DNA from: Legionella sp. | GTDB lineage: Bacteria > Pseudomonadota > Gammaproteobacteria > Legionellales > Legionellaceae | Assembly (NCBI GenBank): GCA_030694525.1 | Contig: JAUXYG010000195.1 | Location: 3,292-67,291, forward strand | Length of the DNA: 64,000 bases | Direction of reading: 5' to 3' | Shown: in pieces, positions 10,335-13,656 of the stretch | Layout of the letters: each line of letters opens with the position of its first letter | Position numbering within the stretch: position 1 is the first letter of the stretch | Position numbers and translations under genes: made by a program | The notes under the pieces: generated by a model | Seen by the model: only the letters and a program-made list of their open reading frames with translations | The model's database searches: none | What the model was told of the DNA's origin: nothing

Positions 10335-11726
10335 TTGGCATCACATGCTTCAACCGTATTAGACGGGCGTCCAGTTACACAGGCGCTTTTCAATAAAATT
10401 CAAATACCGAAGCCTGTTCATCCTGCAAATTTAATGGTTTTATTTTGGGCATTTATTTGCCTTGTTTATTTTTTTGGCCCAATTTATTTGACTCCTGCTG
10501 CTTCCATCTCTACTTTTCTTTTCGTTTCATTGCATCTTCTAATGTTTATCGTTGGATCAACCATTTTATCTCGGGTTGTTTTTTTTAAAACACTGAACAA
10601 TCAGCAGCCCTACCTGTCGTATATAACGAATAAATCTCTGTATACGATAATTTCTTTTGTTCTGTGTATTGGGTTAATAGGCGCGATAAGTAGTATCTAC
10701 AGCAAGCTTGCCATATTAGGTGATCTCAGTTTCTCATCTATTTCGAGATTGCGTGAGTTAAGAGCTCAAGGACTGCTTCATGGTGGTTCGATGCAAAGCA
10801 CCGTGCTCAGTGCTTTAGCTTTTTTAGCCTATCCTGCAGGATTTGTAGGACTTGTTGCGACAATAATTTGTTACGAAACCATTCCCCGCTTGTCTAGAAT
10901 ACTCTGTTTTCTGTTTGTTATAAGCATCATTTTATTAGCGGTATGTGTGGGTGGAAGAAGTCCGATTATGGTTCTGTTTCTATTTATAGGTGCTTCCTGC
11001 TATGTTAGAAATAAGATGGGTAAAAGCTATACGCCGAGATCATTACCTCTTCGAATGGCTATTGCTTCCCTGGTAATCCTGTTTTTTGCCTATAGTAGCT
11101 TTATATGGGTTCTAAGAAGCACTGAATCCGGAATGTCAGCTTCCAGCATGGTTGCTCATGCAGAAAATGTATGGGGAGCACATCCAAAAGAATATCTGGT
11201 TAAAACCAGTGAATGGTTAAATGATCCTGGTTTTACGCAAACGATTTTAAGCACCACATTCTACTTTATTCAAAGCCTGTCTATTTCAGAGCGATTATTA
11301 TCCTCCAGTGAAGTAACACCAACAATGTATGGAGCATATCAAATCGATTTATTTGCTGCCTTTTTCAGAGTTATTCCAGGTGGAGCTGATTTTTTAAAAA
11401 ATGCTTACGGTATTTTGCTTGACGATAATGTGTATGGCTTTTTTACTGGAGCATGGGCTGGATTATTTATCGATTTTGGTGTCTTTAGTTTTTTAGCCGC
11501 TTTATTATGGGGTTATTTTGCGGGTAAATCATGGGTTAATTTTAAGCGTAACCCAGGCGTCCTTACCGGTGTACCTTATGTTTTCTGGACCTATTCTATT
11601 TTTATAAGTTTTGTTTCATTTCCTTTTGGATTCTCTAATTCATTTATGATATTTATTTGGTTTTTGTTTTTTTCCTTAGCAAGTATGCTCTGCTATCGTT
11701 ACAGATGTGTTACAAAAATATCCTGA
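10335..11726 (+). CDS. wzy: O-antigen polymerase (polytopic membrane protein)
   Basis: About 10-11 hydrophobic segments, GGRS motif, NVYGFFTG...FIDFG loop, locus context. Confidence 0.7.
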   Translation: MASHASTVLDGRPVTQALFNKIQIPKPVHPANLMVLFWAFICLVYFFGPIYLTPAASISTFLFVSLHLLMFIVGSTILSRVVFFKTLNNQQPYLSYITNKSLYTIISFVLCIGLIGAISSIYSKLAILGDLSFSSISRLRELRAQGLLHGGSMQSTVLSALAFLAYPAGFVGLVATIICYETIPRLSRILCFLFVISIILLAVCVGGRSPIMVLFLFIGASCYVRNKMGKSYTPRSLPLRMAIASLVILFFAYSSFIWVLRSTESGMSASSMVAHAENVWGAHPKEYLVKTSEWLNDPGFTQTILSTTFYFIQSLSISERLLSSSEVTPTMYGAYQIDLFAAFFRVIPGGADFLKNAYGILLDDNVYGFFTGAWAGLFIDFGVFSFLAALLWGYFAGKSWVNFKRNPGVLTGVPYVFWTYSIFISFVSFPFGFSNSFMIFIWFLFFSLASMLCYRYRCVTKIS

Positions 11727-11763: not shown

Positions 11764-12670
11764 AAAACTCCTGGATCCCTCGGACTACTTCTCGGACCCT
11801 CGGACTTACATCCCCCAATTTTCCCTCTATCCCTATGCCCCTCGGCTCGTCCGAGGGGTCCAGTATTCTTGCTCAGTTATAATATACTTTAAGCATATAT
11901 TTTTTTAAAATTCTATTTTCTTTATTTGCTCAAATTGTGACTTACATTTGAAATACTGTGCTTTGATGTAAAACTCCTGGATCCCTCGGACCAGCCGAGG
12001 GACGTAGGGTCTTTTGGATGAGAGTAGTCACTTTATTACTACCTCCACCCTCGAACGGACTTCTCCCACCCTCGGGCTAACTCCCTGCATCCACGAGCTA
12101 ACTTCCCCTCATCCCTACGCCCCTCGGCTCGTGCGAGGGGTCCAGTATGCTTGCTCAGTATGTACTGTAAGGATATAATTCTTATAAATTTCTATTTTCA
12201 TTACTTGCTTAAATTGTGACTTACATTTAAACACTCAGTATGCTCTGGTTTAAACTCCTGGATCCCTCGGACGAGCCGAGGGACGTAAGGGTTTGGATGA
12301 GAGTAGTCACTTTATTACTACTTCTCCTACCCTCCAAACTAACTTGCCCCAGCAGCCCTCGGACTACTTCTCGGATCCTCAGACTAACTTCCCCTCAGCC
12401 CTCGGACTACTTCTCGGACCCTCGGACTAACATCCCCCAATTTTCCCTCTCTATCCCTACGCCCCTCGGCTCGTCCGAGGGGTCCAGTATTCTTGCTCAG
12501 TTATAATATACTTTAAGCATATATTTTTTTTAAATTTCTATTTTCTTTACTTGCTCAAATTGTGACTTACATTTGAAATACTGTGCTTTGATGTAAAACT
12601 CCTGGATCCCTCGGACCAGCCGAGGGACGTAGGATCATTTGAATGAGAGTTATGGATAATACTACTTCCT
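11764..12670. repeat. BIME/REPIN-like array of seven alternating 31-bp REP palindromes
   Basis: CTGGATCCCTCGGAC(G/C)AGCCGAGGGACGTA(G/A) on + at 11771-11785 (truncated), 11977-12007, 12258-12288, 12602-12632; reverse-complement variant at 11833-11863, 12115-12145, 12457-12487; alternating C-rich and AT-rich spacers. Confidence 0.92.
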
Positions 12671-12678
12671 ATACCGTG

Positions 12679-13656
12679 CTATCCTATTGGAGCTTCGTTT
12701 TTAATTGTATTTTCAAGTTGCTGGTACAGTGTAAATGGAGCTTTCCAGTTTAGAATTTCTCTGGCGTTATTCGGATTTATTTCCAGATTATTAATTAATT
12801 GATCAGCCAGATTTTCTTTACCTACTGCTTTTAAAAGTAAACCTAATATCCCTTTAGGGATGGGTAAGAGTATAATTTTTTTATCCATTAGTTTGGCTAT
12901 GGTTTTTATTAATTGGGTGGTCGTTATGGTTTCGTTATCTGCTACAGTAAAGGTATGATTTGCTGCTTTTTCTGAAATGATGCATTCAATAATAAAATGA
13001 ACAAGATTATCAATTCCGATGAATTGTCTTTTGTTATTAATTTTGCCCAATGGAAGCGGCAGTCCCTTTGCGACATATTGGAGCAATTTTTTAAAATTAC
13101 CTTTAACACCTGGCCCGTAAACCAACGGGGGTCTAATTATAACCAGCTCCATATCTTTGGCAAATTGACTTAAACAGTGCTCCGCTTCCAATTTGGATTG
13201 GGCATAAGGTAATTTTGGGTTTGGTGTAGAACAATCGCTAAATGGAATATCTTGACTCGTATTACCTAAAACGCCAATACTGCTTATAAATATAATACGC
13301 TTAATTCCAGCTATTTTGGCCTGCTCGGCCAGATTTTTGCTTGCCTCACAGTTTACCTGACGAAACTCTTTTAAAGGATCAGTGCTGGTTTCATTTAAAA
13401 TATGAGCGCGTGCAGCGCAATGAACAACAGTGTGGGTATTGCACAACGCTTCGCTCCAATCTGTTGTATCACTTAAATCACCCAATTTATAAAGACTCAG
13501 ATTATTAAATTGGGTCATTGATTTTTTTAATGCTGATAAAGCAGTCGCAGAGCGAACAGTACCCCGGACTTCATACCCTTGCTGGCATAAAGTTCGGATT
13601 AAAGCCTGTCCCACAAAGCCACTGGCTCCAGTTACGAGAATTGTTTGATTATGCAT
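12679..13656 (-). CDS. NAD-dependent epimerase/dehydratase (extended SDR, UDP-sugar)
   Basis: TGASGFVG, FISSIGV, YAQSK catalytic YxxxK, IIRPPLVYGPG. Confidence 0.9.
   Translation of the reverse strand: MHNQTILVTGASGFVGQALIRTLCQQGYEVRGTVRSATALSALKKSMTQFNNLSLYKLGDLSDTTDWSEALCNTHTVVHCAARAHILNETSTDPLKEFRQVNCEASKNLAEQAKIAGIKRIIFISSIGVLGNTSQDIPFSDCSTPNPKLPYAQSKLEAEHCLSQFAKDMELVIIRPPLVYGPGVKGNFKKLLQYVAKGLPLPLGKINNKRQFIGIDNLVHFIIECIISEKAANHTFTVADNETITTTQLIKTIAKLMDKKIILLPIPKGILGLLLKAVGKENLADQLINNLEINPNNAREILNWKAPFTLYQQLENTIKNEAPIG

What the first reader, a model, noticed from the sequence alone, without database searches (positions are those of the whole stretch)
11764..12670. Seven-REP BIME-like array inside the O-antigen locus
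Seen: a 31-bp palindrome (stem CCCTCGG/CCGAGGG, CGTC tag on one strand) alternates +,-,+,-,+,-,+ across about 900 bp. It is separated by two spacer classes: variable C-rich spacers (about 45-170 bp) and conserved AT-rich spacers (about 113 bp). It lies between convergent wzy and the epimerase-GT-wzx operon. Known: BIME/REPIN arrays are mobilised by RAYT transposases, stabilise mRNA 3' ends and act as recombination and IS targets. Inference: an uncharacterised Legionella BIME family that may promote rearrangement of the serogroup locus.
Basis: partly seen in the sequence, partly recalled or inferred. Interest (0 to 1): 0.7.

Follow-up and report, generated by a model that had tools for sequence, protein, structure and literature searches.

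The report
Mosaic hairpin-repeat array between LPS genes

Summary
Window 11771-12633 carries six complete copies and one truncated copy of a 32-nt hairpin repeat (CTGGAT-CCCTCGG-N5-CCGAGGG-ACGTAGG) in alternating orientation. It fills the gap between convergent Wzy-like and epimerase genes.

The repeat is a genuine dispersed family:
- The genome has about 200 copies, 93% of them outside long ORFs.
- The 8-bp stem is kept through compensatory changes.
- Its invariant tags occur in 153 of 206 Legionellaceae genomes.

The RAYT/REPIN reading is not supported. The genome's one RAYT is flanked by a different, GTAG-tagged repeat. None of about 30 RAYT/Y1 loci examined carries this repeat. Repeat abundance is unrelated to RAYT presence.

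The same hairpin, tags included, lies just inside the tips of the long terminal repeats of an ISSpu10-like IS5-family insertion sequence that also carries a GIY-YIG gene. This genome keeps only decayed copies of that element.

The array is a mosaic:
- The "AT-rich spacers" are relics of the pyrE 3' tail, copied in with the repeat that follows pyrE.
- The "C-rich spacers" are minisatellites of half-repeats.
- The sister genome has one unit where this one has three.

No rearrangement of the LPS genes was seen. This is a new member of a known kind, of moderate interest.

The parts
10335..11726 (+). Upstream flanking gene: 463-aa polytopic protein, O-antigen polymerase (Wzy)-like. Its stop lies 44 nt before the first repeat.
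   Evidence: TIGR04370 at 37 bits (cut-off 40); 94% identical orthologue in the sister genome G060.
11771..11785 (+). Truncated repeat: head CTGGAT plus left arm CCCTCGGAC, fused to a half-repeat of the C-rich spacer. The orthologous copy in G060 is complete.
11786..11831 (.). C-rich spacer 1 (46 nt), 98% identical to the end of spacer 3.
   Evidence: family D5.
11832..11863 (-). Complete repeat of the CTGGAC...GGGGC(A/G)TAGG variant, the same rare variant that follows pyrE.
11864..11976 (-). AT-rich spacer A: relic of the pyrE 3' tail. On the - strand it translates to ...YFKCKSQFEQIKKIEF*, against PyrE ...YLKNNGQFEQVKKMEAYQELYGCGA*.
   Evidence: local alignment without the repeat beats all 2000 shuffles.
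11977..12008 (+). Complete repeat of the consensus type.
   Evidence: 37.6 bits.
12009..12113 (.). Spacer 2 (105 nt): a conserved 33-nt block (12013-12045) followed by degenerate C-rich half-repeat units.
   Evidence: families D7, D9.
12114..12145 (-). Complete repeat of the CTGGAC variant, with one stem mismatch.
12146..12257 (-). AT-rich spacer B: an older, more diverged relic of the pyrE tail. Unit B, repeats included, is 84% identical to unit A.
12258..12289 (+). Complete repeat of the consensus type.
12290..12455 (.). Spacer 3 (about 166 nt): the conserved block (12292-12324), then 2.7 copies of a 43-nt unit. Each unit holds two copies of the repeat's left arm CCCTCGGAC.
   Evidence: period 43, 85% matches.
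12456..12487 (-). Complete repeat of the CTGGAC variant.
12488..12601 (-). AT-rich spacer C: relic of the pyrE tail, a recent copy of A (97-98% identical).
12602..12633 (+). Complete repeat of the consensus type. The array ends 45 nt before the epimerase stop codon.
12679..13656 (-). Downstream flanking gene, convergent: NAD-dependent SDR epimerase/dehydratase, first of an epimerase-GT2-419-aa ORF run.

Best explanation
The region is a mosaic, BIME/NIME-like array of a REP-type hairpin repeat that is old and widespread in the Legionellaceae. The repeat has conserved unpaired tags, 5'-CTGGAT and ACGTAGG-3', around a co-varying 8-bp G+C-rich stem and a 5-nt loop.

Shown:
- The repeat is the same module that sits just inside the tips of the roughly 65-bp terminal inverted repeats of an ISSpu10-like IS5-family (DDE) insertion sequence. 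That element also carries a small GIY-YIG nuclease gene.
- This genome keeps only decayed copies of that element.
- Most of its roughly 200 repeats, including those in the window, are bare hairpins without the IS tips.
- The array's content is a pyrE-tail relic with the repeat that follows pyrE, runs of the repeat's left arm, and roughly 280-345-bp units. There is one unit in the sister genome and three here. Two of the three are 97-98% identical.

Inferred:
- The repeats descend from this IS lineage, or share an origin with its ends, and are no longer moving in this genome.
- The array was assembled in place by three steps: an ectopic copy between repeats at two loci, slippage that produced the half-repeat minisatellite, and unequal recombination that amplified the units.
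- It is tolerated between two convergent 3' ends. There its stable hairpins (-15 to -18 kcal/mol each, with long-range pairing between inverted neighbours) probably act as 3'-end RNA structures or insulators for both transcripts.

A RAYT is not needed for any step.
For: Family status:
- About 208 nhmmer hits fall in 76 clusters.
- 193 of 208 lie outside ORFs of at least 120 aa, in a genome that is 85% coding.
- Clusters are enriched between convergent genes (15 of 44 against 16% background) and depleted between divergent ones.
- The stem is paired in 96-99% of 149 full copies, with double compensatory changes at 5 of 8 pairs. The tags are near-invariant, and conservation stops sharply at the repeat's ends.
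- 1728 alignments between clusters extend a median of 4 and 1 nt beyond the repeat.

Distribution:
- The tag pattern occurs in 153 of 206 Legionellaceae genomes, with reversed controls at about 0-2.
- It is abundant in 4 of about 298 other gammaproteobacterial genomes sampled.

Link to the IS:
- In G484, at least six inverted repeat pairs lie 1.2-1.35 kb apart. Three aligned copies read TA | GGGCGTGTTGACATTT... | repeat(-) | GIY-YIG | DDE transposase | repeat(+) | ...AAATGTCAACACGCCC | TA.
- At least one exact-tag repeat with the adjoining IS tip stands beside the transposase in 7 of 12 sampled Legionellaceae loci. Both ends are seen in 5.
- G000 holds decayed copies with the same tips: C74, C140, C160, C84 and C106.
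- ISSpu10 itself has homologous tips but no hairpin.

Array history:
- The spacers have no other strong match in the genome except a pyrE match.
- The pyrE-tail alignment beats 2000 of 2000 shuffles for all four copies, and in G060 it runs through the stop codon to the repeat.
- G060 has one unit with a complete first repeat, against three units here.
- All 12 G060 repeat loci that could be compared are also occupied in G000. Eight differ in copy number.

Against RAYT.
Against: - The window's repeats show no recognisable IS tips. Their descent from the IS therefore rests on identity of the hairpin and tags, and on intermediate copies elsewhere in the genome.
- The direction is not proven. The IS could have captured a pre-existing host repeat.
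- The sharp conservation of only the 32-nt module is not what simple decay of a MITE predicts. It hints at selection, or at a mobiliser that reads the hairpin itself.
- Repeat-rich genomes often lack an intact transposase.
- G060 is a metagenome-assembled genome and G000 a 209-contig draft, so tandem copy numbers may be collapsed or mis-assembled. No reads could be laid.
- The proposed RNA-level role is untested. The repeats lack T-runs, and the terminator scan is at background.
Confidence: 0.68

Rival explanations
1. REPIN/BIME in the strict sense: the repeats are non-autonomous elements copied by the genome's RAYT (Y1 HUH transposase) acting in trans.
For: - An intact RAYT exists (NF047646, 176.9 bits).
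- The repeats form inverted doublets with preferred 25-26 and 40-42-nt spacers, as REPINs do.
- The 3' tag contains GTAG.
Against: - The RAYT is flanked by a different family, GTAGCCYGTAWTA..., here and at RAYT loci in several other genomes (8 of the 27 loci scanned).
- None of 27 RAYT loci or 3 other Y1 loci carries this repeat.
- Abundance is independent of RAYT presence (Fisher p = 1), whereas p = 0.0002 for the GTAG family.
- G024, G065 and G081, with 15-68 copies, have no Y1 domain at all.
- GTAG lies 3' of the hairpin, the mirror image of the canonical geometry.
Confidence: 0.1
2. A hairpin-specific mobiliser other than RAYT: the small GIY-YIG nuclease that always sits between the two repeats of the IS. 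It also stands alone between two repeats at G000:C49. It would nick at the conserved tags and seed copying of bare repeats and of adjacent DNA such as the pyrE tail.
For: - GIY-YIG accompanies the transposase in 9 of 12 IS loci.
- There is an intact 110-aa frame between repeat(-) and repeat(+), without transposase or tips, at C49.
- Only the hairpin and its tags are conserved, not the IS tips.
- An ectopic copy of flanking DNA exists.
Against: - Repeat-rich genomes G003, G043 and G060 lack an intact IS-type GIY-YIG.
- There is no biochemical evidence.
- Passenger genes in IS elements are common and need not act on the ends.
Confidence: 0.07
3. A host regulatory element: a bidirectional terminator or mRNA-stabilising array selected at this site for LPS gene expression. 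Its repeat nature would be incidental.
For: - The array lies exactly between two convergent stop codons, 44 and 45 nt from each.
- It has a very stable predicted structure.
- The family is enriched at convergent 3' ends genome-wide.
- The array is kept in the sister species.
Against: - There are no T-runs, and the terminator scan is at background.
- Unit number is not conserved.
- The spacers are a pseudogene scrap and a minisatellite.
- A more distant relative (G041) has Wzy next to the GT2 with no array.
Confidence: 0.1
4. Assembly artefact: the three-unit array results from mis-assembly of a shorter repeat.
For: - The assembly is a 209-contig draft, and 32 of 76 repeat clusters sit at contig ends.
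- Units A and C are 97-98% identical.
Against: - The array is internal to a 75.7-kb contig.
- The units differ by substitutions and indels, and unit B is only 84% identical.
- The sister genome has an orthologous array with the same parts.
- Assemblers usually collapse tandem repeats rather than expand them.
Confidence: 0.04

Closest known systems
REP/BIME of Escherichia coli and REPINs of Pseudomonas (RAYT-associated)
   Same: - Short G+C-rich extragenic palindromes with conserved unpaired tags, in hundreds of copies and favouring 3' ends.
- Alternating-orientation clusters with two alternating repeat variants, like Y/Z REPs.
- Inverted doublets with preferred spacing.
- Local amplification of units.
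   Different: - No RAYT is flanked by this repeat, and abundance is independent of RAYT.
- GTAG lies 3' of the hairpin, not 5'.
- The linkers are specific to this locus (a pyrE relic and a half-repeat minisatellite), not family-wide motifs.
- No IHF-like site at up to 1 mismatch.
- The hairpin is part of the ends of a DDE-type IS.
CGTC-tagged REPs (Di Nocera, De Gregorio and Rocco 2013, PMC3733652), including Neisseria dRS3
   Same: - Read on the other strand, the repeat is CCTA-CGTC-CCTCGG-N5-CCGAGG-GAT-CCAG: a CGTC tag, an 8-bp stem, a 5-nt loop and a CCA tail.
- No dedicated RAYT, as reported for that class.
- That class coexists with GTAG repeats, as here.
   Different: - The stem does not start with the two A/T pairs described as nearly invariant.
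- The usual dimer here has the tags outward.
- Legionella is not mentioned in the paper or its supplements.
- Here a parent-like IS is identifiable.
Neisserial intergenic mosaic elements (NIMEs: repeat units bounded by dRS3). This comparison comes from my own knowledge and was not tested here.
   Same: Arrays in which short inverted repeats alternate with longer, partly unrelated blocks, often near surface-structure genes. They are thought to be built by recombination between the short repeats.
   Different: No sequence relation was tested. Here one block is demonstrably a pseudogene fragment of pyrE.
IS-derived MITEs (e.g. Correia elements, Coxiella QMITE2 with its embedded REP, PMC5896051)
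   Same: - Non-coding units of 100-400 bp that fold into long hairpins.
- The ends match those of an IS.
- TA target duplication is seen for the full and decayed IS copies.
- A REP is embedded in a longer element, as in QMITE2.
   Different: Most copies, including all in the window, lack the transposase-binding tips. The dispersed unit is only about 32-37 nt.
ISSpu10 (IS5 family)
   Same: The transposase is 64% identical. The terminal tips are homologous, GGGC(T/G)TGTTGA..., and flanked by TA.
   Different: ISSpu10 has short simple ends with no hairpin module and no GIY-YIG gene.

Membership tests
REP/BIME (RAYT-associated REP) | Short (20-40 nt) imperfect palindrome, over 100 copies, extragenic | tested here: met
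   About 208 copies, 149 full length, 193 of 208 outside long ORFs.
REP/BIME (RAYT-associated REP) | Clusters of regularly spaced repeats in alternating orientation | tested here: met
   The window array runs +-+-+-+. Genome-wide there are 70 alternating junctions against 62 same-orientation junctions, so direct arrays are also common.
REP/BIME (RAYT-associated REP) | GTAG tetranucleotide 5' of the hairpin | tested here: not met
   The consensus is CTGGAT-stem-loop-stem-ACGTAGG. GTAG lies 3' of the hairpin, and the other strand starts CCTACGT.
REP/BIME (RAYT-associated REP) | A RAYT gene flanked by the same repeat | tested here: not met
   0 of 27 RAYT loci and 0 of 3 other Y1 loci. The RAYT is flanked by another family.
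REPIN | Two repeats in inverted orientation with a short spacer, able to form one long hairpin | tested here: met
   18 of 27 '-+' junctions have spacers of 50 nt or less, peaking at 25-26 and 40-42 nt. In the window the spacer is 112-114 nt.
REPIN | Population size tied to a cognate, vertically inherited RAYT | tested here: not met
   No association across 66 congeners: RAYT in 4 of 8 repeat-rich genomes against 27 of 58 others, p = 1. The genomes are related, so this test is rough.
CGTC-tagged REP superfamily | Unpaired CGTC (or TGTC/CCTC) tag at one end and a CCA tail at the other | tested here: met
   The reverse strand reads CCTACGTC...GATCCAG. 113 of 145 copies carry ACGTAGG and 136 of 145 carry CTGGAT. 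The last two tag bases pair as part of the stem.
CGTC-tagged REP superfamily | 8-9-bp stem whose first two pairs are A/T, with a 4-5-nt loop | tested here: not met
   The stem is 8 bp and the loop 5 nt, but only the first pair is T:A. The second is C:G in 112 of 149 copies. Criteria are taken from PMC3733652.
IS-derived MITE | Both ends match the terminal inverted repeats of an autonomous IS, including the tips the transposase acts on | tested here: inconclusive
   The hairpin module matches the subterminal part of the IS ends. Tips are detectable next to about 15 of 200 repeats in G000, but next to none in the window.
IS-derived MITE | Target-site duplication typical of the parent IS | tested here: inconclusive
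   TA flanks the full IS copies and the decayed copies at C74 and C140. No empty-site comparison was possible for the window's repeats.
IS5 family (ISSpu10-like) insertion sequence: the parent-like element, not the window array | DDE_Tnp_1 transposase with an N-terminal DUF4096 domain, short inverted tips, and multiple copies | tested here: met
   PF01609 at 87 bits and PF13340 at 71 bits. At least 6 copies in G484. 98 of 205 Legionellaceae genomes have matches.

The most novel reading that the evidence does not exclude
The conserved module is a hairpin plus the CTGGAT and ACGTAGG tags. It may be the substrate of the small GIY-YIG nuclease that always travels between two such hairpins. Nicking at the tags would drive the spread of bare repeats and the repeat-to-repeat copying of neighbouring DNA, as with the pyrE tail found here. 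That would be a second class of REP mobiliser, not a Y1 transposase, riding inside an IS5-family element.
Probability: 0.07. Interest if true: 0.8.

Novelty: new member of a known kind. Interest (0 to 1): 0.4.

Why it matters
- **An undescribed repeat family.** This REP-type family appears undescribed, yet it is present in about three quarters of the Legionellaceae genomes sampled. It accounts for many contig breaks in this draft assembly: 32 of 76 clusters sit at contig ends.
- **REP shape does not imply a RAYT.** A repeat with every outward sign of a REP/BIME can belong to the ends of a DDE-type insertion sequence. That bears on the open question of where the "orphan" CGTC-type REPs come from.
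- **A datable trace of ectopic copying.** The pyrE-tail relic is concrete evidence of a copy between repeats at two loci, so such arrays really do accumulate foreign sequence.
- **Consequences for the LPS locus.** The practical effect is modest. The array is a variable-number marker between species, and possibly between strains. No gene rearrangement is linked to it.

Tried and rejected
- **Rfam**: only sub-threshold plant miRNA-precursor matches, which reflect the long hairpins. Rejected.
- **Coding potential:** the ORFs inside the array (83 and 88 aa) have no Pfam match at E <= 1, and unit number is not conserved. Rejected as genes.
- **IS110-family targeting of the repeat**, as in Coxiella or Pseudomonas: the one IS110 transposase in G000 (C29) has no repeat halves around it. 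Rejected.
- **IHF site in the linkers**, as in BIME-1: no WATCAANNNNTTR match at up to 1 mismatch.
- **Intrinsic terminators:** at background.
- **Inner-flank motif:** TAACTGAGCA next to the window's (-) repeats resembles the transposase-side inner end of decayed IS copies (12 of 186 repeats against 0.3% expected). The same bases align with the sequence downstream of pyrE. I do not count this as evidence of IS descent.
- **Miscounted pattern:** my first tag-only pattern had one N too many and was rerun correctly.
- **Insertion boundaries:** comparing filled and empty sites with more distant species (68-84% flank identity) showed presence/absence differences, but the flanks are too diverged to read boundaries.
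- **Earlier scan notes**: nothing on this feature.
Full report
**1. The observation**

Reading the sequence and running the repeat finders confirms the array. A profile search places the copies at seven sites in strict alternation:
- 11771-11785 (+): only the head CTGGAT and the left arm
- 11832-11863 (-)
- 11977-12008 (+)
- 12114-12145 (-)
- 12258-12289 (+)
- 12456-12487 (-)
- 12602-12633 (+)

The gaps are 46, 113, 105, 112, 168 and 114 nt. The (+) copies are the family consensus, CTGGATCCCTCGGAC(C/G)AGCCGAGGGACGTAGG. The (-) copies are a variant, CTGGACCCCTCGG...CCGAGGGGCGTAGG, in which the outermost stem pair has changed on both sides.

The array starts 44 nt after the stop of a Wzy-like ORF. 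It ends 45 nt before the stop of a convergent SDR epimerase. 'Wzy' (37 bits against a 40-bit cut-off) and 'Wzx' (E = 0.086) are weakly supported. The neighbourhood also holds a LegC-like aminotransferase, a Wzz and a GT2, so it is an LPS/O-antigen locus.

Both strands fold far better than shuffles (z = -10 and -15). Rfam has nothing real.

**2. A genuine dispersed family**

- *Copy number.* The window lies in a 3.2-Mb, 38.4% G+C, 209-contig genome. An iterated nhmmer search finds about 208 copies in 76 clusters. Of these, 149 are full length, and 70 match CCCTCGG-N4-6-CCGAGGG exactly. The reversed control gives 0.
- *Position.* 193 of 208 copies lie outside ORFs of at least 120 aa, although 85% of the genome is covered by such ORFs. 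Clusters sit between convergent genes in 15 of 44 classifiable cases, against a 16% background. Only 4 of 44 sit between divergent genes, against 25%. Thirty-two clusters lie at contig ends.
- *Conservation.* It is confined to about 32 nt. The tags CTGGAT and ACGTAGG are near-invariant. The 8-bp stem is paired in 96-99% of copies, with compensatory double changes at five of eight pairs. Each hairpin is worth -15.5 to -17.7 kcal/mol.
- *Dispersed unit.* Alignments between copies in different clusters extend a median of only 4 and 1 nt beyond the repeat. The dispersed unit is the hairpin itself.
- *Arrangement.* Inverted '-+' neighbours (heads inward, tags outward) prefer spacers of 25-26 and 40-42 nt. 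Direct arrays with periods near 48, 84, 91 and 160 nt also exist.

**3. Taxonomic spread**

The exact CCCTCGG stem is limited to this genome (70), to its sister G060 (34) and to a handful of copies in five other congeners. Named records with it include these:
- the MAG 'Legionellaceae bacterium UBA2794'
- Legionella sp. D16C41
- L. quinlivanii
- L. shakespearei

Searching for the tags alone (CTGGAY-N19-20-RCGTAGG) gives matches in 153 of 206 Legionellaceae genomes and 33 of 45 genera. Stems differ between lineages but always pair (GCCGCGG, CCCGCGA, ACCGTGG and others). Reversed controls stay at 0-2 per genome. In an even sample of about 298 other gammaproteobacterial genomes, four have 18-31 true copies.

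I found no mention of such a repeat in Legionella in the searchable literature. That includes the survey of GTAG- and CGTC-tagged REPs and its supplements.

**4. Not a RAYT system**

- *A different flanking family.* The genome has one intact RAYT (NF047646, 176.9 bits). It is preceded by three 86-nt units of a different repeat, GTAGCCCGTAATA-N10-TATTACGGG, paired with an inverted partner. That repeat has about 50 copies in the genome. It occurs in 35 of 66 congeners and flanks RAYT genes at 8 of the 27 RAYT loci scanned.
- *A second RAYT type.* In G060 a second RAYT type is flanked by a third hairpin, GTTGGGTCA...TGACCCAAC.
- *Absent from RAYT loci.* The window's repeat is absent within 1.5 kb of all 27 RAYT loci examined. 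Those include genomes that carry it. It is also absent from three loci encoding other Y1-domain proteins in repeat-rich genomes.
- *No link with abundance.* Across 66 congeners its abundance is unrelated to RAYT presence: 4 of 8 against 27 of 58, p = 1. All ten genomes rich in the GTAG family have a RAYT (p = 0.0002). The genomes are related, so these tests are rough.
- *Mirror geometry.* GTAG lies 3' of the hairpin.
- *CGTC-type resemblance.* Read on the other strand, the repeat looks like the CGTC-tagged class, which is also reported to lack a RAYT. It fails that class's criterion of an A/T-start stem.

**5. Link to an insertion sequence**

In G484, which belongs to another family, the repeats come as inverted pairs 1.2-1.35 kb apart, at least six times. 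Three copies align end to end:

TA | GGGCGTGTTGACATTTCGCC... | CCTACGT-hairpin-ATCCAG | GIY-YIG ORF (96 aa) | DDE transposase (249 aa; PF01609 and PF13340) | CTGGAT-hairpin-ACGTAGG | ...GGCGAAATGTCAACACGCCC | TA

The transposase occurs at 72-84% identity, often in many copies, in 98 of 205 Legionellaceae genomes. In 7 of 12 sampled loci at least one exact-tag repeat with the adjoining IS tip stands beside the transposase. Both ends are present in 5. GIY-YIG is adjacent in 9.

The nearest named element is ISSpu10, of the IS5 family, at 64% amino-acid identity. Its tips, GGGCTTGTTGATCTTT flanked by TA, are homologous. It has neither the hairpin nor the GIY-YIG gene.

G000 itself keeps only wrecks:
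- Transposase fragments lie at C84, C160 and C106.
- Decayed elements with recognisable tips lie at C74, C140 and C160.
- One repeat(-)/GIY-YIG/repeat(+) module has an open 110-aa frame at C49.
- Tips are detectable next to about 15 of 200 repeats, and next to none in the window.

Repeat-rich genomes often lack an intact transposase, GIY-YIG or RAYT. The family therefore looks largely immobile today.

**6. How this array was built**

- *AT-rich spacers.* They have one other relative in the genome: the last 25 or so codons of pyrE (orotate phosphoribosyltransferase, G000:C100:12257-12952) plus the 18 nt that lead to the repeat downstream of it. That repeat is the same rare CTGGAC variant as the window's (-) copies. 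Without the repeat, the alignment beats all 2000 shuffles for units A, B, C and for the G060 copy. In G060 it runs through the stop codon up to the repeat. On the - strand the spacers still translate to ...YFKCKSQFEQVKKIEI*, against PyrE's ...YLKNNGQFEQVKKMEAYQELY. A block of about 150 nt, the pyrE tail plus its repeat, was therefore copied into this intergenic region next to a resident repeat. This happened before G000 and G060 split.
- *C-rich spacers.* Each consists of a conserved 33-nt block followed by 20/43-nt tandem units. Each unit carries the repeat's left arm, CCCTCGGAC. The truncated first repeat is explained by a deletion between its own left arm and such a half-repeat. The G060 copy is intact.
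- *Unit number.* G060 has the order repeat(+) | C-rich | repeat(-) | pyrE relic | repeat(+), one unit, between orthologous genes about 90% identical. G000 has three units, of which A and C are 97-98% identical and B 84%. A more distant relative, G041, has Wzy next to the GT2 with no array and no epimerase.
- *Genome-wide pattern.* All 12 G060 repeat loci that could be compared are occupied in G000. Eight differ in copy number, always with more in G000. G060 is a MAG, so some of this may be assembly collapse.

**7. Mechanism and function**

Shown:
- the anatomy
- the family properties
- homology of the module with the IS ends
- the pyrE origin of one spacer class
- the difference in unit number

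Inferred:
- Assembly happened through copying between repeats, slippage and unequal recombination.
- The array is tolerated at a convergent 3'-3' junction, with a likely effect on RNA 3' ends. The hairpins have no T-runs, and the terminator scan is at background.

Nothing suggests the array has rearranged the LPS genes.

**8. Limits**

- There was no read-level or RNA evidence.
- Gene positions genome-wide are ORF proxies.
- The direction of the IS-repeat relationship, descent or capture, is not settled.
- Sharp conservation of just the hairpin and tags is not fully explained by decay of IS ends.

**9. Verdict**

This is a real mosaic array of a REP-like repeat that appears undescribed and is found across the Legionellaceae. 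It is tied to an ISSpu10-like IS with a GIY-YIG passenger, not to a RAYT. It is a new member of a known kind, of moderate interest.

Noticed in passing
G000:C133 (L001:1104-1360 repeats; 1456-1992 RAYT): The genome's single intact RAYT (178 aa) is preceded by three tandem 86-nt units of a GTAG-tagged inverted REP doublet. That family has about 50 copies here and up to 338 in a congener, and it flanks RAYT genes in several other Legionella genomes. It is a canonical, apparently undescribed REPIN-RAYT system in Legionella.
   Followed up: partly
L069:2129-2866 (G060:C87): A second RAYT type, 45% identical to the first, is flanked by a third hairpin family, GTTGGGTCA(N3-5)TGACCCAAC. G000 has 17 such hairpins but no matching RAYT.
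   Followed up: partly
L097:430-1830 (G484:C2) and L100-L111: A roughly 1.4-kb IS5-family (ISSpu10-like) insertion sequence carries a GIY-YIG nuclease gene as a constant passenger. Each of its roughly 65-bp terminal repeats holds a REP-like hairpin. It is multi-copy in many Legionellaceae and in at least one other gammaproteobacterial family.
   Followed up: partly
G000:C49:101-575: A GIY-YIG gene with an open 110-aa frame sits alone between an inverted pair of the repeats, with no transposase and no IS tips.
   Followed up: partly
G000:C100:12257-13413: pyrE is followed 18 nt after its stop by a repeat array (+-----, 52-nt spacing). This locus is the source of the pyrE-tail relics in the window.
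   Followed up: yes
G000:C163:4704-5156 and contig ends generally: Ten direct copies of the repeat lie at a 48-nt period at the end of a contig. Thirty-two of 76 repeat clusters lie at contig ends, so this repeat is a main cause of the assembly's fragmentation.
   Followed up: no
L098 (G484:C3), insert shown at columns 355-479 of alignment A1: One IS copy carries a 125-nt insertion inside its GIY-YIG gene. The insertion consists of an inverted doublet of the repeat and is bounded by a direct duplication of about 17 nt. It may be a trace of recent repeat mobility.
   Followed up: no
window 3360: An isolated match to the head of the GTAG-tagged family (GTAGCC.GTA.TA).
   Followed up: no
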